DNA from: Marinoscillum sp.
GTDB lineage: Bacteria; Bacteroidota; Bacteroidia; Cytophagales; Cyclobacteriaceae
Reading direction: 5' to 3'
NCBI GenBank assembly: GCA_047633875.1
Contig: JBLIFO010000001.1
Coordinates: 1-45,690 of the forward strand
Length of the DNA: 45,690 nucleotides
The notes below the pieces were generated by a model. The model ran no database searches and was not told where the DNA came from. It saw only the letters and a program-made list of their open reading frames with translations. Each line of letters opens with the position of its first letter. The stretch's first letter is position 1. The position numbers were made by a program, and so were the translations under genes. Below are positions 3 through 34,994 of this stretch, one piece after another.

Positions 3-2129
3 AATGCGCAATCAGAGCTTGGTGAATTGGATACCTCTTATGTGCAAGACAGTACTTATGTGCTTTCTATTAGCATTTTCGATGAGAATGGGGTCATGCG
101 CTTGCCCGACTTAAAGGAGTGGCGATTTAAGGAAGGAAATGACACTATTTGGGCTGATCCCAAATTTGATCGCTCAGATTGGGTAAAGTTGAGTCCAGAG
201 GAGATAAGTGCAATCGAAGTAAATGAAGATAGGGTATTTGAAGGCTGGTTTACCATTAAAATCAAACTTGATAGTAGCTTCTATAAACAACCCTTATATC
301 TAGGACAGTCAAATACTGCCGCTGCAGATATTTATGTAGATGGTCAGCTTTTTCAATCTTTTGGAAATACCAATTTTAGAGATAAGGAATACAAAGGCAA
401 GCGAAATTTTATCGACTCTCCACAAGGTATTTCTTGGCCTATCAATCAGGAAATATTTCTGGCTGCACATTTTGTGGAGTACCATGAATCATTCTACCAA
501 ATGCCAAAAGGATTTAGCACGCTGGGTCACCAGTCATTTCTCTATTTCTTCAATAAGAAATCATTTCAACGGTTTCAAAATGTACATTTAAGTCATAATA
601 GGCTAGGTGTCATCATCATCACAACGCTATCGATCTTAGTAATATTATTCTGGCTCATCGTATTGTTTAATAGGTCACAAGTACACATGATCTATTTGGC
701 TACCACCACCACACTTTTCCTTTTACCCACCTTATTTTCTTTTTTGGGTAGTTTTTCAACATCTACCTCCAATTTGACATTCTTTTTGGAGGTCTTAGAA
801 TTTCCCGTAGCAGTCGCATTCATGTCTTCTTTTATTTTCCTTATTGCTAATATTCTCGGGGTTCGAGTACACTGGCTGATAAAACTTTATGTCACGGTGG
901 GTATTTTGATATCATTTAGTGGTTACTTTCTCTCAGAAATCACAAAGCATTATGCCATGGCTATGGCGATCCCTGTTGCAGCAACATGCCTCTATTATTT
1001 AATAAGATATCGGAAAAACTTAAAAGGTCCGAAAGCTATCATAGTTTATGGCCTATTACTGACATTATCATTAGGTATTTTTTTCCGGTTGTTTCCCATA
1101 TTAGAATCATACTACGTGCCTTTTGCTCTTCCCTTAAGTCTATTGGTATATTTAGCCTTCTGGCTAAAAGACATGATCCGGGATATTCATGATAAAGCAG
1201 ATGAAGTAGTCCGAGTATCTAATGAAAAAAAGGAACTGGTGGAAAACCAAAATGTGATCTTAGAAAATCAAGTTTCAGAAAGAACCTCCGAACTGAATCA
1301 ATCCTTGGAAAACCTCAAATCCACCCAAACCCAGCTCGTCCACTCCGAAAAAATGGCTTCCCTCGGAGAATTAACAGCTGGTATTGCCCATGAGATTCAA
1401 AACCCCCTCAACTTCGTCAATAACTTCTCCGATCTGAATAAGGAACTACTCGAAGAACTCAAAGATGCAGTTGCACAGAATGATCAGGAAGAAGTAACCG
1501 CCATCATTAAAGACCTCTCCGAAAACGAACTAAAGATCAATCACCACGGCAAGCGCGCCGAGGAGATTGTCAAAAGCATGCTTCAGCATTCGCGCACGGG
1601 CAGTGGAGAGAAAGAACTTACAGATATCAATGCGCTAGCTGATGAATACCTGCGCCTCTCGTATCATGGATTGAGAGCCAAAGACAAATCCTTCAATGCG
1701 GACTTCAAAGAGGAGCTTGACCCTGAGTTACCAAAAATCAAAGTAATTCCACAGGACATTGGGCGTGTGATTCTGAATCTGATCAACAATGCTTTTCAAG
1801 CAGTGAAGGGTGTGGAGAAGCCGCTTGTACTGGTGTCTACGAAGAAAATCCCCCTAGCCCCCTTTGAAAAGGGGGATTCTTCCAAATCCCCCCTTGAGGG
1901 GGGACAAAGGGGGGTGTTGATCACAGTCTCAGACAATGGCTCAGGAATTCCAGATAATATTAGAGAGAAGATATTCCAACCATTCTTTACCACTAAGCCT
2001 ACAGGCCAAGGAACAGGACTCGGCTTGAGTATGAGCTATGATATAGTGACTAAGGGTCATGGAGGGACAATCGAAGTAGAGAGTGAAGAGGGGATAGGGA
2101 CAAAATTTACAATGCACTTACCAATTTGA
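3..2129 (+). CDS. Membrane sensor histidine kinase (extracytoplasmic beta-domain, several TM helices, HisKA, HATPase); 5' end probably outside the window
   Basis: H-box [24 protein letters not shown]-box NLINNA, G-boxes DNGSG and GQGTGLGLS. The frame is open back to base 3 (NAQSELGEL), so the TTG at 27 is probably not the true start. Confidence 0.93.
1848..1916. repeat. GC-rich multi-hairpin (REP-like) element translated in frame within kinase 1
   Basis: CCCCCTTT-GA-AAAGGGGG (1858-1875) and TCCCCCCT-TG-AGGGGGGA (1887-1904); encodes [23 protein letters not shown]. Confidence 0.75.
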
Positions 2130-2131
2130 GT

Positions 2132-4141
2132 ATGATAAAAAACATTTGTCTAATAGTCATTTTAGTTAGTTGCGGGCTATTTGGCTATAGCCAAAATCAG
2201 TACGCAGATAGTTTAAGATCTGTTTTAAAAACAACAACAGATCCTGTTGACAGGTTTGACCTGCTTAACAATATCCTTTTGGACATTACCAGTTATCGGG
2301 GGAGTAATATTGATTCACTAACAACTATGCAGATGGTTCAGGTTGCTCAGAAGCAAAATAATGATTCCCTATCAGCCATTTCTTACAATTGGTTGGCTTC
2401 ATATTTCTACCAACAAAAAGGAGATAATGCTACAGCCTTGGAATATTATTTTAAAGCCATTCCTCTAGCTGAGACAACAAATGATAAACGACGGATAAGC
2501 TCTATATATTTTGACATGGCTTTGGTCTATTTCGAGATGCTTGATTATGAAATGGCGCTAGAAGTGACGCGAAAAGGTGGAGAAAACCTACCTGACAAAG
2601 CCCACCCAATGTATTATTTCATGCTGATTCAATACCAAGCAAACCTTGTTCAATATTTTCTTATCAAAAATAATCCGGACTCTGCATTTCATTATGCCTT
2701 GGAATCTCGAGAAACTTTAGCGCATTTTAACAAGGGTAGCTCGTACATTTTCTTAGACTATACCAACTTTGCTGCGGCTCATGCCATTTTGGGTAATACA
2801 CTAGATGCTGATGAATACTTCAAAGGCGCACTTACCCTACAAGATTCTATCGAAAACATTACTTCTCAGTTGTATTTCTTCAACGTTTATATTCCATTTC
2901 TCTTGGCTAATGGCAGATATGCAGAAGGGGTCAGTGAAAGTAATAAACTTTTATACATGGGTTTTCAGGCCGACAATAACAACCTTAAACTGGCAGGAGC
3001 CGCTTTTTTGAGACAGTTCTATGATGCTCTAAATCAAATAGATAGTGCCTATTATTATTCTCGATTGGAGTCGACAATCAGTTCTCAAATTTTCAGCCAA
3101 GAAAACAAAAACAAAGTACAGTCATTGGTATTTAACAACCAATTGAGAAGTCTTGAAGAAGAAAGTAAAGCTGTAGCTTATCAAAATCAACTCAAGCAAT
3201 ACAGCCTAATCGGTGGTCTGTGCATGACATTTTTAATCGTTCTGATCCTGTTCTATAATAACCGGCAGAAGCAACGTGGAAATAAAGTTTTAGAAACAAC
3301 ATTAGCCAATCTCAAATCCACCCAATCCCAACTTATCCACTCAGAGAAAATGGCCTCCCTCGGAGAGCTCACAGCAGGTATAGCCCATGAGATACAAAAC
3401 CCATTGAACTTTGTCAACAACTTTTCTGATCTGAATAAAGAGCTGATTGATGAGCAGTTGGAGGAAATTGAAAAGGGAGATTGGGAAGAAACCAAAGCCT
3501 TGGCACTGAGCATCAAGGAAAATGAGACTAAGATTACCTTCCACGGCAAGCGAGCTGAGGAGATTGTCAAAAGCATGCTTCAGCATTCGCGAAATGGAAG
3601 TGGAGAGAAAGAACTCACAGATATTAATGCCTTGGCAGATGAATACCTTCGTCTTTCCTATCATGGACTTAGGGCCAAAGACAAATCCTTCAACGCAGAC
3701 TTCAGAGCAGAACTAGATCCTGATTTACCCAAAGTGAAGGTGATCCCGCAGGACATTGGGCGTGTGATTCTGAATCTGATCAACAATGCCTTCCAAGCGG
3801 TGAAGGGAGTAGAAAAGCCAGAAGTGGTTGTAACTACTAAGAAAATCCCACTAACCCCCTTTGAAAAGGGGGACTCAACAAAATCCCCTCTTGAGGGAGG
3901 GCGGTCCGACGTTTCGGCTAGGGGGGTGTTGATCACAGTCTCGGACAATGGCTCAGGAATTCCAGATAATATCAGAGAGAAGATTTTCCAACCATTCTTC
4001 ACCACCAAGCCTACAGGCCAAGGAACAGGACTTGGTCTGAGTATGAGTTATGATATAGTGACTAAGGGTCATGGAGGGACTATTAGTGTGGAGAGCGAGG
4101 AAGGAAAGGGTACTAAGTTTATTATTCTTTTACCAGTCTGA
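2132..4141 (+). CDS. Sensor histidine kinase with TPR-like periplasmic region
   Basis: Signal peptide, helical repeats ([13 protein letters not shown]), one TM helix, and the same H/N/G boxes as kinase 1. ATG 2132 preferred over TTG 2126. Confidence 0.93.
3845..3928. repeat. Second in-frame palindromic element, within kinase 2
   Basis: Same position and hairpins as 1848-1916, 15 nt longer and with an extra mini-hairpin CCGA-CGTT-TCGG; frame is preserved. Confidence 0.75.
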
Positions 4142-4262
4142 ATCACTGATTTAGAGGATTAAAGGATGACACGGATTATGAAATGAATCAAGAATTAAAA
4201 GACTTGTACTCTAAAATGAAATCAGTGAAATTTATCAATCCTTTTAAATCCGTGATGCTGAC
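4136..4262 (+). mobile_element. Non-autonomous (internally deleted) copy of the GxxExxY element
   Basis: IR-L 4136-4177 and IR-R 4220-4262 match those of 4354-4829. The interior keeps only the gene start (ATGAATCAAGAATTAAAA) and end (GACTTGTACTCTAA). Confidence 0.75.
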
Positions 4263-4266
4263 GAAA

Positions 4267-4359
4267 TATGATACCGTGACTAAAGGCCATGGAGGAACGA
4301 TCAGCGTGGAAAGTGAAGAAGGAAAAGGAACGAAGTTTATAATTTCAATACCCGTCTGA
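4267..4359 (+). pseudogene. Orphan histidine-kinase 3' tail, copy 1
   Basis: Translates [30 protein letters not shown], homologous to 4049-4141. Confidence 0.85.
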
Positions 4360-4829
4360 ATCACTGATTCAGAAGATTAAAGGATGACACGGATTATGAG
4401 ATGCAGCAAGAATTAAAATATAGTGACATAACGGAAAAGATCATTGGAGCTTCTTTTGAGGTTCACAAATTCTTTGGAAACGGATTTCAGGAAGTTATAT
4501 ATCAGCGTGCGTTAGCTTATGAATTTTCTCAGCTTAACCTTGATTTTGCTAGAGAAATAGAGCAAGAAATTTATCACAAAGAACTACGAGAACCCATTGG
4601 AACTCGAAGAGCAGATTTCGTAGTAGAGGGAAAAGTATTGGTAGAAATAAAGGCCGTAATAAATTTGGAAGATGTCCATTTGGCTCAAGTTCTTAATTAT
4701 TTGAAAGCTTATAAATTGGATGTAGGCTTACTTATTAACTTCGGAAGTAAAAGTCTTACCTTCAAACGATTAGTACTCTAAAATGAAATCAGTGAAATCT
4801 ATTAATGCTTTTAAATCCGTGATGCTGAC
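4354..4829 (+). mobile_element. Putative GxxExxY-nuclease element bounded by ~43-bp imperfect inverted repeats
   Basis: GTCTGAATCACTGATT...GACACGGATT (4354-4395) is imperfectly complementary to AATCAGTGAA...AATCCGTGATGCTGAC (4787-4829); kinase-tail copies lie on both sides. Confidence 0.7.
4401..4781 (+). CDS. GxxExxY protein (PD-(D/E)XK nuclease superfamily)
   Basis: GFQEVIY signature, RADFVVEGKVLVEIKA catalytic-type motif, QVLNYLK and GLLINFG. Confidence 0.93.
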   Translation: MQQELKYSDITEKIIGASFEVHKFFGNGFQEVIYQRALAYEFSQLNLDFAREIEQEIYHKELREPIGTRRADFVVEGKVLVEIKAVINLEDVHLAQVLNYLKAYKLDVGLLINFGSKSLTFKRLVL

Positions 4830-4833
4830 TATT

Positions 4834-4929
4834 TATGATATCATAACAAAAGGGCACAACGGAGAGATTAAGGTAGAGAGCAAAGAAGGAGAAGTAACAA
4901 AATTTATTATTTCATTACCAATTCACTAA
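4834..4929 (+). pseudogene. Orphan histidine-kinase 3' tail, copy 2 (probable original gene end)
   Basis: Translates YDIITKGHNGEIKVESKEGEVTKFIISLPIH*, ending 10 nt before the response regulator. Confidence 0.85.
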
Positions 4930-4939
4930 AGCCAACAAA

Positions 4940-5317
4940 ATGAGAATACTCGTAGTAGATGACGAAAAAGACATTCAGCCTTTATTTCAGCAGCGATTTC
5001 GCAAAGAAATCAGAGACAAGGAAATAGAAATAGAATTTGTGCTTTCTGGAGAAGAAGCACTCGAGTACATTGAGAAACATGGATACGAAAACAGTCTTAT
5101 CCTTTCTGATATCAATATGCCAGGGATGAGTGGTTTAGAACTTCTTGAGAAAGTTCGTAAAACCTACACACCACCGCCCCCAATTATCATGATGATATCT
5201 GCCTATGGCGATCAAGAAAACCGTGACACTGCCCACGATTTAGGAGCTGAGGAATTCTTCACAAAACCCCTTGACTTCAATCTACTGAAAGAAAGAATCA
5301 AAACACTGAACCAATGA
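4940..5317 (+). CDS. Single-domain response regulator
   Basis: ILVVDDE, SDINMPGMSG, ISAYG, TKP. Confidence 0.93.
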   Translation: MRILVVDDEKDIQPLFQQRFRKEIRDKEIEIEFVLSGEEALEYIEKHGYENSLILSDINMPGMSGLELLEKVRKTYTPPPPIIMMISAYGDQENRDTAHDLGAEEFFTKPLDFNLLKERIKTLNQ

Positions 5318-18493: not shown

Positions 18494-21400
18494 GTGGAAG
18501 AGCTACAGCACGTGCCTTGGACTTTTATAATGATTGCTTCGTTGATCTTGTGCACGGGTCTTTTAGGATTGGTGCTGTTGATCATGAAGTTCCCTGCTGC
18601 TCGGCTGCTCGGCAAGTTGCTCTTTACAAATATCGCCTTATTGGTCATCGTTCTAGTACCTGATTTGGAGGTGTTTCAGATTTGTGTGCTAGTAGCTATT
18701 GCCATCCAGCTTCGTCTTTATATCGATTCTTTTTTCATTCAAAAAACGAGGGTCAGTTATTGGAATTGGTTGCCTATGCTCACCATAGTTGCCCTGTATT
18801 GGACAAGTGAATCCATCTATACCATTGGAGGGTTGGTTGTTATTGCGATTTACCTTGTGTTGTCGTTTAGGTTATTAAGCAGGGAATCAGAGAAGCGAGG
18901 CATAAGTTGGTTTACCAACCCAGGGGATCGGCTTGGGTGGTTTCGCGATTTCATCTGCTTAAATCTGGTAGTGCTCATATCAGCCTACTGGGCGCCTGCA
19001 TGGTTGCTCTGTATTTTGGTATTGCTCGTTGTGTCCATGGTGCTTTATCAGATAGTTAAAGAATCCAACTTCATCACGCCAATTCCGCTAGGCAATAAGT
19101 ATCAGAAATCCACTTTGACACCTCATATCAAAGTTGCTATCCTCAGCAAGATCGAAGATGTGATGGACAAGGGGGAGTTCTATCTGCGCGATGATGCTTC
19201 CCTCTCTAATTTGGCAACACAATTGGGAGCCACTACCCATCACCTCTCACAAGTGCTGAATGAATCCATGAAGATCAGTTTTCAGGATTTGATGGCGCGC
19301 TATCGTATCAGGCATGCCTGCCGGATGCTACGCGATCCAGCCAACGATCAGATGAAGATTGAGAATATCGCTTCGGTGGTGGGTTACAATTCTAAGTCAG
19401 CATTCAATACTGCTTTTAAGAAGCGAACGGGCCTTACACCATCTGAGTATAAGGAGTCCAAGGACGTGCGATCTTATGGGGAAGAACGTCTATCCGATCG
19501 GAAAATACCATCAGGCACGCGTGGTGCTTTTAGTTTGAGTCATGTTTTCAACTTCAAAATGAACAGCGACATGATTCAGCATTTTTTTAAAATCTTTGGT
19601 AGGAATGTAAAGCGTAATGGGCTCTTTTCGTTTCTCAATATTCTTGGTCTCTCTGTCGGATTTACCTGCAGTATTCTCATTTATCTCTTCATATCCGATG
19701 AGCTTTCTTACGACAAAGACATAGCTGATTATGAGCAAATCCATCGTATCGCTTGGCTAAATGAAAACCCACAGACCCGTACTCCGCACCCTATGGCACA
19801 AGCCATGGTCAATGACTTTCCAGAAGTAGATGCGGCAGTGAGTCTCTCGCCATGGTATGGCAATGGACTTAGTAAGTCAATGGTAAGAGTGAAAAATGTA
19901 GAGAAGAATATCGTCTTTGAGGAGCCAGATTTCTACTTCGCGGACTCCACTTTTCTGGATGTATTTCAGCTAGAGGTGCTGGAAGGTGATAAAGATGCCC
20001 TGAAGCAACCTTTCGCATTGGTTATCACAAAACCACTTGCTGAGCGCTATTTTGGTGAGGAGAGTGCCATTGGTCAGGAGTTGCAGCTCAATGACATGCC
20101 TATAGCAGTGACTGCCGTGGTAGGGCCTATGCCAGAGCATTCTCATTTCCATTTTCAAGCAATCATCCCTTATGTAACGCTTAAGCAGATCAATCCTAAT
20201 GATTCGTGGATGAAGTGGGAAGATTTTGGACATTTCAATTATATCAAGCTCAAAGAGGGGGCAGATGCTGCCGTGGTAGAAAGTAAAATCTCAGAATGGG
20301 TGGTGGGTTATTTGGATTGGGGTCAGACTGATCTGGAAATATTGAAATCAGGCGAGGCAAGATTCGATTTGCAGCCAATCGCTGATATTCACTTGTCATC
20401 CCACTTGCGTTGGGAGTTGGAAAATAATGGTAACATCCTATATGTCTATATACTCCTTGTTACGCTAGTCTTTTTGATCTTAATCGCATGTATCAATTAT
20501 GTAAACTTGACCACTGCCAAATCGATGGAGCGTGCCAAGGAAATAGGGGTGAGGAAGACACTCGGTGCGGTCTCTATCAATCTTTCCATTCAGTTCTATT
20601 TTGAAGCCATTCTTTTCAGCGTGCTTGCAATGGCGCTCTCTTTGGGATTGGCTTTGCTCTTCTTAGATAGTTTCAATTTTCTTGCGGCAAGTGCTTTTGA
20701 TTTGCAAATGATTCTTAATGCACCTTTTATTCTTAAAGCATTTAGCTTAAGCATTGTTATAGGGTTGTTGGCTGGGTTTTATCCGGCAATAGCCCTGGCA
20801 GATTTCAAACCTTCAGAAGTATTGAAAGGCAAATTAACCACTCAGTCAAAAGGGGTGAGAATGCGTAGCGCCTTGGTGGTGGTGCAGTTTGCTGTATCCG
20901 CAATATTGATCACGGGCAGTCTGATGATCTTCCGCCAGATCCAATACATGAAAGACAAAGAGTTGGGCTTTGATAAGGAAGCGATTGTTTCCATAGACAT
21001 ACCAATTAGCGTAGAGCATGGTGGGCTGAATCTGCCTTTGGTCTATACCGTACAGCAGCAGATCGAAGCTATCGCTGGTGTAAGAGGTACTTCCATGATG
21101 TCCAACATTCCAGGAGGGCAGTTCAACCAGCATCCGTATTATCCAGTTGAAAATCCTGAGAATAGAGTAGATATTAACAATGTCATGGTGGGGTTTGGTA
21201 TCGAAAAAGTACTTGGATTAGAGATTACTCAGGGGAGGGCATTTGATCGCTCTTTTCCTTCTGATTCTATGACCAACTGCATCATCAACGAAGTTGCTTT
21301 GAAACAACTGGATATAGAAAACCCAATCGGAAAATCTATCATGTATGCTGGTGCAGGAAGAAATCACGAATCTAAAATTATAGGTGTGATGCGCGATTTT

Positions 21401-21997
21401 CATTATCGGTCTTTGCATCAGCCGATAGAGCCCATGATCTTTCATGTGCAGCCTTTGGGAGTGAGTAGCATGTTGGTAAAGTTTGACGGCAGTCAATTTG
21501 GCTCGGTGATTGAAAAAGTGGAGGCTGCATATGCTGAATTGAATAAGGACCTTCCTTTTGAATACCGATTTCTGGACGACCAGATGTCTGAACTTTATGA
21601 TCAGGAGATTCATACGCTAAATATCTTCTCGGTCTTTTCATTGATTGCTTTGCTCTTGGCATGTCTGGGACTGCTGGGCATGGCCATTGCTATTTTGAAT
21701 CAGCGAACAAAAGAGGTAGGCATGCGCAAAATACTTGGCGCCAGCGCCTCTCAGATCATGGCAATGTTTGTAGGTCAATTCCTTCGCTTGGTGGTGATTG
21801 CATTGGTGATCGGGCTGCCTATAGCGTACTTCCTCATGCAGCAATGGATCGCGGAGTTTTCCTACCAGGCGCCATTTGGCATCATGCCTTTTGCATGGTC
21901 TGTGGTCATCTTAATTTCGGTTTGCGTGCTCAGTGTGGTTTCAGCTATTGCTAAAATCATCTATGCCAATCCGGTGAATGCCTTGCGGTACGAGTAG
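18494..21997 (+). CDS. Fusion of a membrane-anchored AraC-family regulator and a MacB/FtsX-type ABC permease
   Basis: N-terminal TM helices; AraC HTH (HHLSQVLN...VGYNSKSAFNTAFKKRTGLTPSEY); from about 19571 a permease (FSFLNILGLSVG, RAKEIGVRKTLGA, RTKEVGMRKILGAS, ANPVNALRYE). Confidence 0.85.
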   Translation: MEELQHVPWTFIMIASLILCTGLLGLVLLIMKFPAARLLGKLLFTNIALLVIVLVPDLEVFQICVLVAIAIQLRLYIDSFFIQKTRVSYWNWLPMLTIVALYWTSESIYTIGGLVVIAIYLVLSFRLLSRESEKRGISWFTNPGDRLGWFRDFICLNLVVLISAYWAPAWLLCILVLLVVSMVLYQIVKESNFITPIPLGNKYQKSTLTPHIKVAILSKIEDVMDKGEFYLRDDASLSNLATQLGATTHHLSQVLNESMKISFQDLMARYRIRHACRMLRDPANDQMKIENIASVVGYNSKSAFNTAFKKRTGLTPSEYKESKDVRSYGEERLSDRKIPSGTRGAFSLSHVFNFKMNSDMIQHFFKIFGRNVKRNGLFSFLNILGLSVGFTCSILIYLFISDELSYDKDIADYEQIHRIAWLNENPQTRTPHPMAQAMVNDFPEVDAAVSLSPWYGNGLSKSMVRVKNVEKNIVFEEPDFYFADSTFLDVFQLEVLEGDKDALKQPFALVITKPLAERYFGEESAIGQELQLNDMPIAVTAVVGPMPEHSHFHFQAIIPYVTLKQINPNDSWMKWEDFGHFNYIKLKEGADAAVVESKISEWVVGYLDWGQTDLEILKSGEARFDLQPIADIHLSSHLRWELENNGNILYVYILLVTLVFLILIACINYVNLTTAKSMERAKEIGVRKTLGAVSINLSIQFYFEAILFSVLAMALSLGLALLFLDSFNFLAASAFDLQMILNAPFILKAFSLSIVIGLLAGFYPAIALADFKPSEVLKGKLTTQSKGVRMRSALVVVQFAVSAILITGSLMIFRQIQYMKDKELGFDKEAIVSIDIPISVEHGGLNLPLVYTVQQQIEAIAGVRGTSMMSNIPGGQFNQHPYYPVENPENRVDINNVMVGFGIEKVLGLEITQGRAFDRSFPSDSMTNCIINEVALKQLDIENPIGKSIMYAGAGRNHESKIIGVMRDFHYRSLHQPIEPMIFHVQPLGVSSMLVKFDGSQFGSVIEKVEAAYAELNKDLPFEYRFLDDQMSELYDQEIHTLNIFSVFSLIALLLACLGLLGMAIAILNQRTKEVGMRKILGASASQIMAMFVGQFLRLVVIALVIGLPIAYFLMQQWIAEFSYQAPFGIMPFAWSVVILISVCVLSVVSAIAKIIYANPVNALRYE

Positions 21998-32087: not shown

Positions 32088-32972
32088 TTATTCCGTTTCC
32101 GAATAAAAACGAGACATAATCATGACGTGAGGCAAAGTAATAAGAGATACCAGCACAAAGAATAAGGTAACGAGTGGCCAACTCAGGTCCAACTGGACTG
32201 CTAAAAGAATGATGACGATTATCCCAACCCAACTGATGACTGTGTAGGGTGTCGCATTCCTGATCCAGGCACGCATCCCAAATCCTTTTTTGATCTCGCT
32301 TAGTTTCAGTAGTTGGAAGCTAGTCGCATCATAAGCATGCCATAAGGCAAAAAATACTGCAAATCCGACTAAAAGGGAGGTGTAGCTAGAGATGATATAA
32401 AGCATTGCCAACTCTATAGATTCTCTAATAAAAAGAGCGCGTGAGCTAAGAACTAATAGCAACAATAAAGGCAAGCCGAAAATACCGAGAATAAACAGGG
32501 CATAATTTTGAAAAAACTCAAATGTATCGATACCAATTAGGTAGGGAACGATCAACCCTTTTGTTTCAGTAAGATGAGGAAGGAAGAGCACCAATAATGC
32601 GCAACAGCCCCATAGGAAATACGTGAATCGCGCTATTCTGAGTTTATTTTTGTGAATCATGAGCTGAGCCTCACCGAAATGATAAGCAGATATGATCAGG
32701 AAAATCAAAAAAGCAAGACCATTAAAGAAGTACCATAAGGCCGCATAGGTCATCATGATGGACAAGTAGGCTCCAATAAACTTCCAAAGTGGCCATTTCT
32801 TCATCTTACTAACAGGCAGGTGCTGTACCAATAGGTGGTCAGTGGCGCCATGAGCAATACCCATGATGGCTATCAGCGCAAAAGCGAATACCAGCTCAAG
32901 CTTTGTATCGCCTATCAAGTAGAAGATCAGTAGGCTAGCGAACGTAATGATGCCTTTATGAAATAACGGCAT
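32088..32972 (-). CDS. blh: Brp/Blh beta-carotene 15,15'-dioxygenase
   Basis: GIAHGATDH, SAYHFGE, FALWHA, ITLPH; downstream of the rhodopsin. Confidence 0.92.
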   Translation of the reverse strand: MPLFHKGIITFASLLIFYLIGDTKLELVFAFALIAIMGIAHGATDHLLVQHLPVSKMKKWPLWKFIGAYLSIMMTYAALWYFFNGLAFLIFLIISAYHFGEAQLMIHKNKLRIARFTYFLWGCCALLVLFLPHLTETKGLIVPYLIGIDTFEFFQNYALFILGIFGLPLLLLLVLSSRALFIRESIELAMLYIISSYTSLLVGFAVFFALWHAYDATSFQLLKLSEIKKGFGMRAWIRNATPYTVISWVGIIVIILLAVQLDLSWPLVTLFFVLVSLITLPHVMIMSRFYSETE

Positions 32973-34098
32973 TTCGTGTTCTTTTCATAAGTGTGCTCAA
33001 AAATGGTTGCCAAGGTAACTGACCTAAGATCATCATCTCTTCGGGCAAGGTTGTCTCTTCATCCAAAAATTTCAATACTCTGGCTATGGGTTGATTTTTG
33101 AATAGAAATTCCATTATTTTCTTTACCATAAGGGGTTGTTCCTTCATGATCTGCAGCAAGAGTGTATCATAAAAGTCAAACCTGCCTTTTTCTTGTATAG
33201 TCTCTGGATGGCCTAGTAGTTCCTGTATGATCGACTTTGCATGCTTCTGAACATTCATGAATGTATAGCCCGTAGTAGCTTTCGTGTCACCACCTACTGT
33301 ACCAATCCTAAAAACCCTTTTGTGCGGTTTAGCATCGAATGGGTAGTTCGTCATAGGAATGTTACCCTTCTCTCGTTCGATGATGGTATAGGATGTTATT
33401 CCAAGCTCATCTAAGATGTAATTTTCTAATTCACTTTCGAATTTCACTTGGTTAAAATGAAAGTCTGTACTGAACTGAGTGTACTCCACTAAAGCCTCGT
33501 TTTCGGAATAAGGTAAAAAATACACGAAGCTTGGCGCTTCCTGTTGTGCAACTCGAAAATCCATCAAAATAGGCTTTTGGCGATCAAAAACTGGCTTTTC
33601 GGTTTGGATAGTCCATCCGACAAAATTTTGCGATAGCATAAGGATATCTGAAGGGATGGCCTTGGGCTTGGTAATACTATCTATGAGATACTCAGCATGA
33701 TAGCTCTGATCTCCTGCTTGCACTGAGATCAAATGATCTTCATGGATGATAGCTGATACTTTTTCTTGGAGAAAAGTGATGCGCTTGTCTGCACGAATTT
33801 TATCGAAAACTTCCTGATAAAATTCCTTGCTATGGATCGTATAGTAAGTATAAGGAGCAATAGCTTCGAAACGCAAATAATCATCGGAGGCAAAACCTAA
33901 CTCCGACCAATGTTGCTTTTGAGCACATTTATAAAAGGCATTGTTTTCAGTCCAAAAACTCCAGGTTCTATCATTGGTGTTTTTGGTATCATGATCTATG
34001 ATCATGATAGAAGCAAAAGGAATCTCCGATGCTATGAGGTGGTGGATAAAACTTAAACCACCGAGCCCGGCTCCTGCAACAATGTAGTCGTAGATCAT
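32956..34098 (-). CDS. crtY: Lycopene beta-cyclase family protein
   Basis: YDYIVAGAGLGG FAD motif, NDRTWSFW, LMDFR, EKGNIPM, KATTGYTF. Confidence 0.88.
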   Translation of the reverse strand: MIYDYIVAGAGLGGLSFIHHLIASEIPFASIMIIDHDTKNTNDRTWSFWTENNAFYKCAQKQHWSELGFASDDYLRFEAIAPYTYYTIHSKEFYQEVFDKIRADKRITFLQEKVSAIIHEDHLISVQAGDQSYHAEYLIDSITKPKAIPSDILMLSQNFVGWTIQTEKPVFDRQKPILMDFRVAQQEAPSFVYFLPYSENEALVEYTQFSTDFHFNQVKFESELENYILDELGITSYTIIEREKGNIPMTNYPFDAKPHKRVFRIGTVGGDTKATTGYTFMNVQKHAKSIIQELLGHPETIQEKGRFDFYDTLLLQIMKEQPLMVKKIMEFLFKNQPIARVLKFLDEETTLPEEMMILGQLPWQPFLSTLMKRTRNAVIS

Positions 34099-34109
34099 CT
34101 TTAATTATT

Positions 34110-34194
34110 AGAACTGGTCCGTGCTACTTGCGGAGGTTCCGGTAATCGATATTTGCTTGCATCTGATGCAAGGAGAGTATCACGAACCAGTTCT
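34110..34194. other. Branched stem-loop between the rhodopsin gene and crtY
   Basis: 19-bp outer stem (17/19 Watson-Crick) plus inner CTTGCATC-T-GATGCAAG. Confidence 0.65.
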
Positions 34195-34207
34195 TTTTTT
34201 TTACTAC

Positions 34208-34948
34208 TTAAGCGGCAGTTGATTTACTCTTTGATGCGATCGCTAAGCTGTAGATCACCAAGCCAAAACCAATCTTATTCACAGCATCACCGATGTTGTA
34301 GATTAGATCCATTGAAGCAAGAGGCAAAACTCCACGAAGAATACCGTCAGTTTCGATAGCCATATAACCGATAGGATAGATAGCCCATCCTACCAATACG
34401 AACCATCCAAGTGATTTGAACGCTTTTTGAAGTATTGGATCATTGGATCCATCAGCAAGCTTCTTAGCACTTCCGAGCCATATCTCGTATACAATACCTA
34501 TGTAACCGAGCGTTGAAATCGCACCCCAAATGGCGCTACTTTCTCTGAAAACGGTTTCCCCAAGATATCCTGCTACGAGCATCCATAAAGAATAGGCGAT
34601 CATTTTCCACATCAATCCAATCTTAGCACCGAATGCTTTCAGGATCAAATAGAATTCTACGCACATCAAAGGAACAGTTAAGGTCCAGTCAATGTATCGT
34701 AAGGCAGTTGGACTGTATCCGTTTTCAATCCAAAACTCTCGCATGTAGTAGTAATGCACTGCTGCGATAAATGTGATAAGGCCTGATACTAGAAGAGATG
34801 TCTTCCATTTGCCTTCTACGCTACTTCTTTCCATAAAAAAGAAGATAGTTGCGGCAGCCATAGCCATAGCCCCAACAAAAAAGGTGAATCCTACGTAATC
34901 ATTAGGAAGCAGGGTGGCTGCCAAAAGAGAATTAAAATTGTTCATAGC
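34208..34948 (-). CDS. prd: Proteorhodopsin (DTE proton pump, green-tuned Met)
   Basis: RYIDWTLTVPLMCVE (D/T/E, M at the tuning site), AVHY His, retinal Lys in DAVNKIGFG; ATG 34948 preferred over GTG 34981. Confidence 0.95.
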   Translation of the reverse strand, partial: AMNNFNSLLAATLLPNDYVGFTFFVGAMAMAAATIFFFMERSSVEGKWKTSLLVSGLITFIAAVHYYYMREFWIENGYSPTALRYIDWTLTVPLMCVEFYLILKAFGAKIGLMWKMIAYSLWMLVAGYLGETVFRESSAIWGAISTLGYIGIVYEIWLGSAKKLADGSNDPILQKAFKSLGWFVLVGWAIYPIGYMAIETDGILRGVLPLASMDLIYNIGDAVNKIGFGLVIYSLAIASKSKSTAA

Positions 34949-34994
34949 ATTTATAAGTTTGGTTATACGGGTGGTGAACACCCTGTTTTTTAAT

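What the first reader, a model, noticed from the sequence alone, without database searches (positions are those of the whole stretch)
4049..4929. Candidate new mobile system: GxxExxY nuclease cassette that replaces a gene's 3' tail
Seen: the order is tail(4049-4141), IR-L, deleted gene, IR-R, tail(4267-4359), IR-L, GxxExxY, IR-R, tail(4834-4929). Both orphan tails begin at exactly the same Tyr codon (TATGAT of SYDI), 4 nt after the IR-R end GCTGAC. IR-L supplies the last codon and stop (GTC TGA) of the two upstream tails, whereas the last tail, which has no IR-L, ends differently. No transposase or integrase is present; the only cargo is a 126-aa protein. Established: GxxExxY proteins are predicted PD-(D/E)XK nucleases of unclear role. 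Inference: the unit [replacement tail + IR-L + nuclease + IR-R] integrates site-specifically near a conserved gene end, restores the gene and pushes the old tail downstream, here twice in succession.
Basis: partly seen in the sequence, partly recalled or inferred. Interest (0 to 1): 0.9.

Follow-up and report, generated by a model that had tools for sequence, protein, structure and literature searches.

The report
Gene-tail-replacing GxxExxY nuclease cassette
A half-kilobase DNA cassette holding only a small predicted nuclease sits at the end of a sensor-kinase gene, with a spare copy of the gene's last 30 codons in front and the gene's original end left behind it; the same layout recurs in many other bacteria, and the cassette likely spreads by recombination without any integrase or transposase.

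Summary
Observation confirmed; an independent run assembles it too. The layout is general: 37 of 80 close GxxExxY loci lie at the end of this kinase family, and 27 of those 37 have an orphan tail at the same codons. Three hsdM families show the same layout, and DUF6090 genes a mirror-image head duplication. Empty alleles show that the orphan is the native end (window tail 3: 75/87 nt to an empty relative, against 57 for tail 1). At hsdM the upstream tail is cassette-specific and scattered over the gene tree. So 'replaces the tail, displaces the old one' is supported. 'Site-specific integration' is not: the junctions lie inside the unit, crossovers vary, and occupied kinase alleles carry no immunity change. 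'Twice in succession' is unproven. Distant GxxExxY cassettes have arms but no tail copy (0 of 27), and non-nuclease genes at hsdM ends also end in tail copies. Best reading: the cassette spreads by homologous recombination, and the orphan is the right homology arm where the next gene is hypervariable. That the nuclease drives this is inferred only. The scan noted the armed cassette before on other DNA, not tail replacement. Closest known: fungal mitochondrial C-terminus-carrying homing endonucleases.

The parts
2126..4141 (+). Host sensor histidine kinase HK2 (TPR-HisKA-HATPase_c), last member of a tandem kinase array; stop codon supplied by IR-L1
   Evidence: sensor orthologues in G008 (74.5%) and G622 (84.8%)
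4049..4141 (+). Tail 1: the functional last 30 codons of HK2 (upstream or replacement tail)
   Evidence: 67/87 nt to tail 2 with 14 synonymous and 3 non-synonymous codon changes; 57/87 to the empty-allele tail of G622
4136..4177 (+). IR-L1, left arm; supplies the last Val codon and TGA
   Evidence: same arm at most of the 80 related loci
4183..4214 (+). Internally deleted GxxExxY remnant (start and end only); differs from the intact gene at 4 of 32 nt
4220..4262 (+). IR-R1, right arm, private GCTGAC end variant
   Evidence: 46/49 nt to IR-R2
4267..4359 (+). Tail 2: orphan kinase tail, in frame and undamaged, ending in IR-L2
4354..4395 (+). IR-L2, left arm
   Evidence: 44/47 nt to IR-L1
4401..4781 (+). 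GxxExxY protein, 126 aa, minimal Cas4/RecB-like PD-(D/E)XK fold with intact E31, D72, E82, K84, Q96, Y100
4787..4829 (+). IR-R2, right arm
4834..4929 (+). Tail 3: the displaced native end of the array's last kinase, still joined to the response-regulator start region
   Evidence: 75/87, 73/87 and 69/87 nt to the last-kinase tails of empty alleles in G622, G549 and G008
4940..5317 (+). Downstream response regulator (host gene, marks the orthologous position)

Best explanation
The unit is a cassette of two inverted arms around a predicted nuclease gene, with a copy of the host gene's tail on each side, and it likely moves between alleles and paralogues by homologous recombination, probably stimulated by the nuclease acting on its own arms. 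Shown: the architecture, its recurrence, that the downstream tail is the native end, that the upstream tail is cassette-linked at hsdM, and that the catalytic residues are conserved under strong purifying selection. Inferred step 1: the left crossover falls in the conserved gene body and the right one in the orphan tail (or in IR-R of an already occupied allele), so the recipient gene gains the donor's tail and the IR-L stop while its own tail ends up behind IR-R. Inferred step 2: the tail copy is found where the next gene begins with hypervariable sequence (kinase sensor, HsdS recognition domain), because only a duplicated tail gives a right homology arm there; between conserved housekeeping genes none is needed. 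Inferred step 3, least sure: the protein binds or cuts its arms rather than a target sequence and so raises the exchange rate, also for gene-less units. Stacks such as the one here arise by repeated entry or by unequal crossing-over between tails.
For: Recurrence: 37 of 80 loci at kinase ends, 27 of those 37 with an orphan behind the full unit (26 pattern hits less one false hit, plus L017 and L037 seen). hsdM family A 7 of 8, B 2 of 2, C 2 of 2. Head duplication in the DUF6090 gene L078 and in L354, whose family I did not scan. Native end. The cassette-type hsdM end is on 31 of 123 proteins and needs 21 changes on the body tree, at least 5 forced by starred branches; one clade is rejected at p-AU 0.04 on a 40-row subset. 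L041 and L045 have almost identical nuclease genes, and identity falls from about 98% to 62% just upstream of the replacement tail. L075 and L079 share tail (96%), arm and gene (100%) but not the orphan (62%) or the next gene. Orphans look like recently functional tails: 145 synonymous against 118 non-synonymous codon changes, neutral expectation 42 against 234; 1 of 19 with a stop against 55% expected; pN/pS 0.26 against 0.27 for native tails. Nuclease: catalytic residues invariant in 68 of 68, median dN/dS 0.048. Nuclease lineages track the site (kinase label 4 changes against 27.4 shuffled). Distant subfamilies carry different arm motifs.
Against: No call shows nuclease activity or a nuclease-dependent event. 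RhuM-like and ORF6N genes without nuclease end in a hsdM-like tail in 6 of 68 hsdM loci, while the cassette occurs in 1 of 68. Across 14 kinase loci nuclease-gene similarity follows the kinase body (r=0.48-0.50) more than either tail (upstream 0.26, p=0.07; orphan 0.14), which points to much co-descent. 10 of 37 kinase loci have no orphan. In the window, tails 1 and 2 are of the local TKGH type, not the KAHG type of most loci, so they did not come from a distant donor. The L075 kinase is only a 78-residue end fragment. The orphan set left out frameshifted orphans such as L017, L034, L063 and L080. The cassette-type hsdM label was read from the protein end, and context was seen for only 9 loci.
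Confidence: 0.5

Rival explanations
1. Passive hitch-hiking: same architecture and same host recombination, but the nuclease plays no part in the tail exchange. One ancient event per gene family made the tail copy, and ordinary shuffling of kinase arrays and hsdM-hsdS cassettes carries and refreshes it.
For: Non-nuclease cargo shows the same tail copy at hsdM (6 of 68). A different 277-aa gene sits before IR-R plus orphan in the G465 array. The nuclease tree follows the kinase body. Arrays without the cassette also show similar bodies with unlike tails. Near-identical tandem empty units in L330 and L110 look like plain unequal crossing-over.
Against: The nuclease is under strong purifying selection although gene-less units are common. 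The family is in 160 of 301 Bacteroidota genomes and 0 of 14 controls. Orphans start within a few bases of the IR-R end at all four 3' target families, which suggests end-directed events at least at their origin.
Confidence: 0.27
2. Classical free-standing homing endonuclease: the protein recognises and cuts a sequence at the junction of the empty allele, and double-strand-break repair copies the cassette in.
For: The architecture is that of fungal mitochondrial endonuclease ORFs that carry a foreign C-terminus (PMC3630166, passages). At hsdM family A the replacement tail differs sharply from the native one right at the junction, with variable co-conversion upstream. Site-linked nuclease clades.
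Against: At kinases no position from -57 to +32 around the junction separates 30 occupied from 45 empty alleles at p<0.01, and 11 of 30 occupied alleles have a 24-nt junction window identical to an empty one, so donors would cut themselves and their paralogues. Proteins 80-89% identical to the query occupy targets with no shared motif that I could see. The model has no extra DNA-binding domain.
Confidence: 0.1
3. Each insertion is a transposition-like event that creates a long (25-90 bp) target duplication; the copies diverge afterwards.
For: The arms form precise TGT...ACA-type ends, and the duplicated stretch runs exactly from IR-R to IR-L. Some loci have close copies (L018 0.90, L010 0.88, L040 0.85), and within-locus identity is slightly above between-locus identity (0.727 against 0.695). 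It may well explain the first event in each gene family.
Against: Differences between the copies are mostly synonymous, far from neutral decay. At hsdM all cassette alleles share one distinct upstream tail regardless of host allele. Indel state differs between the two tails in L074 and L063.
Confidence: 0.07
4. RNA-guided homing: the transcript of IR-R plus the adjoining orphan tail serves as scaffold and guide to the empty allele, in the way transposon right-end RNAs guide TnpB (recalled, no call).
For: One nuclease lineage serves unrelated targets, and the orphan is always the native target sequence flush with a structured arm.
Against: Upstream and orphan tails are nearly identical next to the junction in several loci (L018, L034, L040, L110), so the donor would be its own target. 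The protein is a bare 126-aa catalytic core. Many family members have no orphan.
Confidence: 0.03
5. Random deletion remnants of three full kinases, or a misassembly.
For: In G622 and G008 another full kinase lies between the HK2 orthologue and the response regulator, so loss of a kinase at this one locus cannot be excluded.
Against: The same start codons recur in 27 loci of several families, and hsdM genes, seen as one copy per locus, show the same layout. An independent contig spans the region.
Confidence: 0.03

Closest known systems
Fungal mitochondrial mobile endonuclease ORFs that carry a foreign C-terminus (Allomyces atp6; Glomus atp6, atp9, cox2, nad3; PMC3630166, passages read)
   Same: Gene body, inserted foreign C-terminal part, endonuclease ORF, displaced native C-terminal part; the native part matches empty relatives, and the inserted part is diverged in DNA but similar in protein.
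   Different: Those use LAGLIDADG or GIY-YIG enzymes that cut the ORF-less allele. Here the enzyme is a 126-aa Cas4/RecB-like PD-(D/E)XK core, enclosed by inverted arms, in bacterial chromosomes, at several unrelated genes, with gene-less derivatives and no immunity signature at the kinase site.
Free-standing homing endonucleases of phage T4 (seg, mob; intronless homing; PMC2988022, passages read)
   Same: Promoter-less nuclease genes between co-oriented genes; inheritance by recombination in flanking homology with co-conversion.
   Different: GIY-YIG or HNH enzymes with a recognised target; the passages read mention no terminal arms and no duplicated gene end.
Prophage e14 in E. coli icd, with the icdC C-terminal pseudogene (PMC13626634, passages read)
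   Same: A bacterial element flanked by a gene that extends into it and by an orphan C-terminal fragment with mostly synonymous differences; excision recombines the two.
   Different: A 15-kb prophage with a site-specific recombination system and a fixed crossover; here 0.5 kb, no recombinase, variable crossovers.
MITEs and REPIN-RAYT pairs (recalled; also named in earlier scan notes)
   Same: Short inverted-repeat elements, gene-less copies beside a gene-bearing copy, in-frame insertions into genes (L041, L045).
   Different: The cargo is a PD-(D/E)XK protein, not a HUH or DDE transposase; no short fixed target duplication was seen; copies are confined to gene junctions.
PDDEXK_3 / PF13366 / TIGR04256 GxxExxY family (PMC3424549, table row read)
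   Same: The protein is a member; the paper lists its function as unknown, with multiple horizontal transfers.
   Different: The passages read say nothing of flanking arms, target genes or tail replacement.

Membership tests
GxxExxY / PF13366 | Profile score over the curated cut-off, GxxExxY motif | tested here: met
   117.5 bits against 22; 125.8 against 35
PD-(D/E)XK nuclease (Cas4/RecB-like) | Fold and catalytic E, D, ExK, QxxxY residues | tested here: met
   pLDDT 96.7; best matches Cas4 SSO0001 (Foldseek E=4e-4; Z 8.4, rmsd 5.0, 103 aligned), then restriction enzymes and Hjc at Z about 7; residues invariant in 68 of 68
PD-(D/E)XK nuclease (Cas4/RecB-like) | Nuclease activity | not testable with these tools
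   needs purified protein
C-terminus-carrying homing endonuclease element | Inserted tail + nuclease ORF + displaced native tail that matches empty alleles | tested here: met
C-terminus-carrying homing endonuclease element | Occupied allele differs from the empty allele at the cut site (immunity) | tested here: inconclusive
   not met at kinases (11 of 30 identical over 24 nt); compatible at hsdM family A
C-terminus-carrying homing endonuclease element | LAGLIDADG or GIY-YIG enzyme | tested here: not met
   only PF13366 matches
C-terminus-carrying homing endonuclease element | Enzyme cuts the empty allele and drives inheritance | not testable with these tools
   bench assay needed
Integrative element restoring a target gene (e14/icd type) | Own tyrosine or serine recombinase | tested here: not met
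   only cargo is PF13366; none found among 30 window proteins scanned
Integrative element restoring a target gene (e14/icd type) | Fixed crossover point | tested here: not met
   exchange points upstream of the tail, mid-tail and in IR-R
IS / MITE | Terminal inverted repeats | tested here: met
IS / MITE | Short, fixed-length, identical target duplication | tested here: not met
   duplications of about 25-90 nt, diverged, or absent
IS / MITE | A transposase elsewhere in the genome with matching ends | tested here: inconclusive
   no further arm copies in the own genome, 79% complete; other genomes not searched for this
Diversity-generating retroelement | Adenine-specific differences between template and variable repeat | tested here: not met
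   differences at 30% of A, 38% of C, 22% of G, 22% of T in 19 orphans
Known structured RNA family | Rfam match | tested here: not met
   0 matches at E<=0.1 in 3700-5100

The most novel reading that the evidence does not exclude
GxxExxY cassettes are an undescribed class of minimal selfish element. A 126-aa nuclease recognises its own inverted arms, not a target site, and drives homing-like spread; targeting comes from captured host gene ends, so one nuclease lineage invades kinase arrays, hsdM genes and DUF6090 arrays simply by carrying the matching tail or head. A by-product would be faster shuffling of sensor-kinase arrays and restriction specificity. (A still bolder RNA-guided version has about 0.03.)
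Probability: 0.3. Interest if true: 0.88.

Novelty: new variant of a known kind. Interest (0 to 1): 0.7.

Why it matters
PF13366 is a large family listed as of unknown function, present in 160 of 301 Bacteroidota genomes searched. These loci give it a concrete, testable job and ready-made substrates: matched empty and occupied alleles. The tail-replacement design is described for fungal mitochondria with other nuclease families and for a prophage with a recombinase, and I found no paper on a recombinase-free bacterial version (searches; most subscription journals are not in the library). The rule that the copy appears where the next gene is hypervariable also applies to non-nuclease passengers at hsdM-hsdS, so these junctions may be general landing pads. 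For annotation, a C-terminal 'IV*' or 'VV*' on such kinases and HsdM proteins often marks the cassette.

Tried and rejected
Immunity polymorphism at the kinase junction: none. Tail duplication in distant GxxExxY loci: 27 of 30 testable, 2 passed the shuffle test but both hits were translated repeat arms, so 0 real. DGR-type adenine bias: none. Rfam: none. PADLOC: only weak Cas4b matches for the window protein, E>=0.0036. Stable hairpin of the whole unit as single-stranded DNA: no better than shuffles. Homodimer prediction: no verdict. No RNA holder listed. AU test on all 123 hsdM rows did not finish in two runs, so it was run on a random 16+24 subset with a simpler model (borderline). Mantel tests did not show the upstream tail tracking the nuclease better than the kinase body does. 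A depth-2 contig in run X6 joins 4240 to 4808 (loss of one unit): too thin to use. Strain pair G465/G467: no clean gain of a full cassette into an otherwise identical allele, because the upstream kinases differ. I-Ssp6803I did not appear in the fold lists, which excludes nothing. No supplements were read.
Full report
1. Observation. The arms are imperfect inverted repeats well above shuffles. The three tails are in frame and mutually 68-77% identical, mostly at third positions (tail 1 against tail 2: 14 synonymous, 3 non-synonymous codons), while the two units' arms are 94% identical. Run X3 gives one contig over 4051-5400 with two differences, so misassembly is unlikely. The genome (79% complete) holds no second copy.

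2. The layout is general for this subfamily. The 80 closest loci (80-89% protein identity; Bacteroidota, Ignavibacteria, Chlorobi, cyanobacteria, best 80 of 465 confirmed) mostly show the same arms, beginning TGTCTGAATCAC and ending in its complement. 37 of 80 lie at the 3' end of this kinase family, with IR-L supplying the stop; 27 of those 37 have an orphan tail right behind IR-R and 10 have none (L011/L014 and L072/L073 are near-duplicates). 24 of 80 lie in type I restriction operons (some assigned by eye). Three hsdM families show an orphan hsdM end (7 of 8, 2 of 2, 2 of 2), and in the other 12 I saw none. The DUF6090 gene L078 and the similar L354 (family not scanned) show the mirror image, a duplicated head; the four differences in L078 are all synonymous by my reading. 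Stacks with gene-less units are common.

3. Which tail is native. Relatives without the cassette have a kinase directly before the response regulator. Its tail matches window tail 3, not tail 1: G622 75 against 57 of 87 nt, with the first 30 nt identical; G549 73 against 56; G008 69 against 65. The kinase in front of that tail differs in each relative, and the HK2 sensor orthologue sits elsewhere in the array, so arrays are shuffled and tails stay with the gene downstream. The hsdM case is cleaner. Empty alleles end ...EESAEILNSILELI* and run into hsdS; this is the orphan of occupied alleles, which end instead ...READEVLESIANLIV*. That end is on 31 of 123 proteins (a share inflated by my query), needs 21 changes on a tree of the gene body (shuffled mean 27.8; at least 5 forced), and one clade is rejected weakly. 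The length of cassette-type sequence upstream of the junction varies between alleles, as co-conversion would give.

4. Natural pairs. L041 and L045 share an almost identical nuclease gene, and identity drops just upstream of the replacement tail. L075 and L079 share tail, arm and gene but differ from inside IR-R onward; L075's kinase is only an end fragment. In the 99%-identical pair G465/G467, one junction is empty in one genome and carries tail, arms and orphan in the other, and the last 45 nt of the orphan equal the empty allele's functional tail. Exchange points therefore vary, as expected for homologous recombination and not for a recombinase. Orphans keep the signature of coding selection, with the caveat that the most decayed ones were filtered out.

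5. Limits. Distant family members (33-46% identity) mostly have their own arm motifs and sit between housekeeping genes without tail copies (0 of 27). At hsdM, non-nuclease RhuM-like and ORF6N genes end in frame with a hsdM-like tail in 6 of 68 loci, while this cassette is in 1 of 68 (two of the six were typed by Pfam); other repeat families sit at the same end in 6 of 28 loci. So the design is a property of these junctions as much as of this nuclease. Occupied and empty kinase alleles are indistinguishable around the junction, against a target-recognising homing enzyme. Nuclease genes cluster by site but also follow the kinase body, so lateral moves are occasional, not constant.

6. The protein. 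The model (pLDDT 96.7) is a bare PD-(D/E)XK core closest to Cas4, with restriction enzymes and Holliday-junction resolvases close behind; a shared fold shows no function. Catalytic residues are invariant in 68 of 68 close members and median dN/dS is 0.048 over 79 unsaturated pairs. Activity is therefore likely selected, but on what substrate is unknown.

7. Mechanism. I commit to spread by double-crossover recombination with the gene body and the orphan as arms (about 0.85 for this part, summing the readings that share it), and to the nuclease helping through its own arms (0.5 overall). The arm-directed role is inferred from subfamily-specific arms, the lack of a common target, junctions flush with arm ends and the abundance of gene-less units; an earlier scan note proposed the same role. 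In the window, the private IR-R variant shared by both units and the local type of tails 1 and 2 suggest that the stack was built within this lineage; whether by two entries or by duplication and conversion cannot be told.

8. Comparison and novelty. It works like the fungal mitochondrial endonuclease ORFs that bring a foreign C-terminus (PMC3630166, passages), and resembles T4 intronless homing (PMC2988022, passages) and e14/icd (PMC13626634, passages), but it fails or cannot pass their defining tests. 'GxxExxY' is held by 3 papers (2 listed): one passage read concerns a gene beside a reverse transcriptase, the other paper was seen as a listing only. PF13366 is listed as unknown (PMC3424549). 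Further searches gave nothing relevant (listings only). Earlier scan notes describe the armed cassette many times; none of those shown describes tail replacement. Verdict: real, recurrent and apparently undescribed; new variant of a known kind; interest 0.7.

Noticed in passing
window 3836-3935 and 1839-1925: Both kinases carry an in-frame G/C-run palindromic insert inside the ATPase domain (KKIPL...KSPLEGG). The HK1 copy folds at z=-2.9, the HK2 copy does not. Shorter versions occur in G008 kinases. Its likeness to repeats beside DUF559 genes is recalled, not tested.
   Followed up: partly
L054, about 220 and 120 nt before and 545-650 nt after the GxxExxY start: Kinase tails separated by a different short hairpin (CCCC..TTAGGGG type), with orphans starting at HGG: a second element family that leaves tail copies at the same kinase end.
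   Followed up: no
L188, L197, L237, L239, L245, L248: Genes between hsdM and hsdS (RhuM-like in L248, ORF6N in L188) whose own C-terminus is a hsdM-like tail overlapping the hsdS start.
   Followed up: partly
L128, L129, L130, L132, L133, L136: Other short-repeat families sit at the same hsdM end and alter its last codons; L136 keeps a short duplicate of the native end.
   Followed up: no
L041 and L045, about 520-630 nt after the GxxExxY start: A gene-less arm pair inserted just after the hsdS start codon, leaving an open frame into hsdS.
   Followed up: partly
L330 (G468 C8), 2308-3400 on the minus strand; L334: Five near-identical tandem units of tail plus a sister arm type (TGTCTGAATTGGG...), with the same junction before the Tyr codon.
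   Followed up: no
L321:9812-10645 (G465): A 277-aa unrelated gene sits between a kinase end and IR-R plus orphan tail: cargo exchange inside the arms; family not determined.
   Followed up: no
window 4183-4359 and 4783-4929: An ATG at the start of each IR-R region opens a frame continuous with the orphan tail (58 and 48 aa ORFs); the same frame recurs in many loci. Expression unknown.
   Followed up: no
window 18494-21997 +: A 1167-aa ORF joins an AraC-type HTH to MacB and FtsX domains.
   Followed up: no
window 32088-34981 -: Rhodopsin gene with lycopene cyclase and beta-carotene dioxygenase genes; ordinary.
   Followed up: no
L016:445-2946: An HsdM with a DUF559 domain inserted at residues 415-523.
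   Followed up: no
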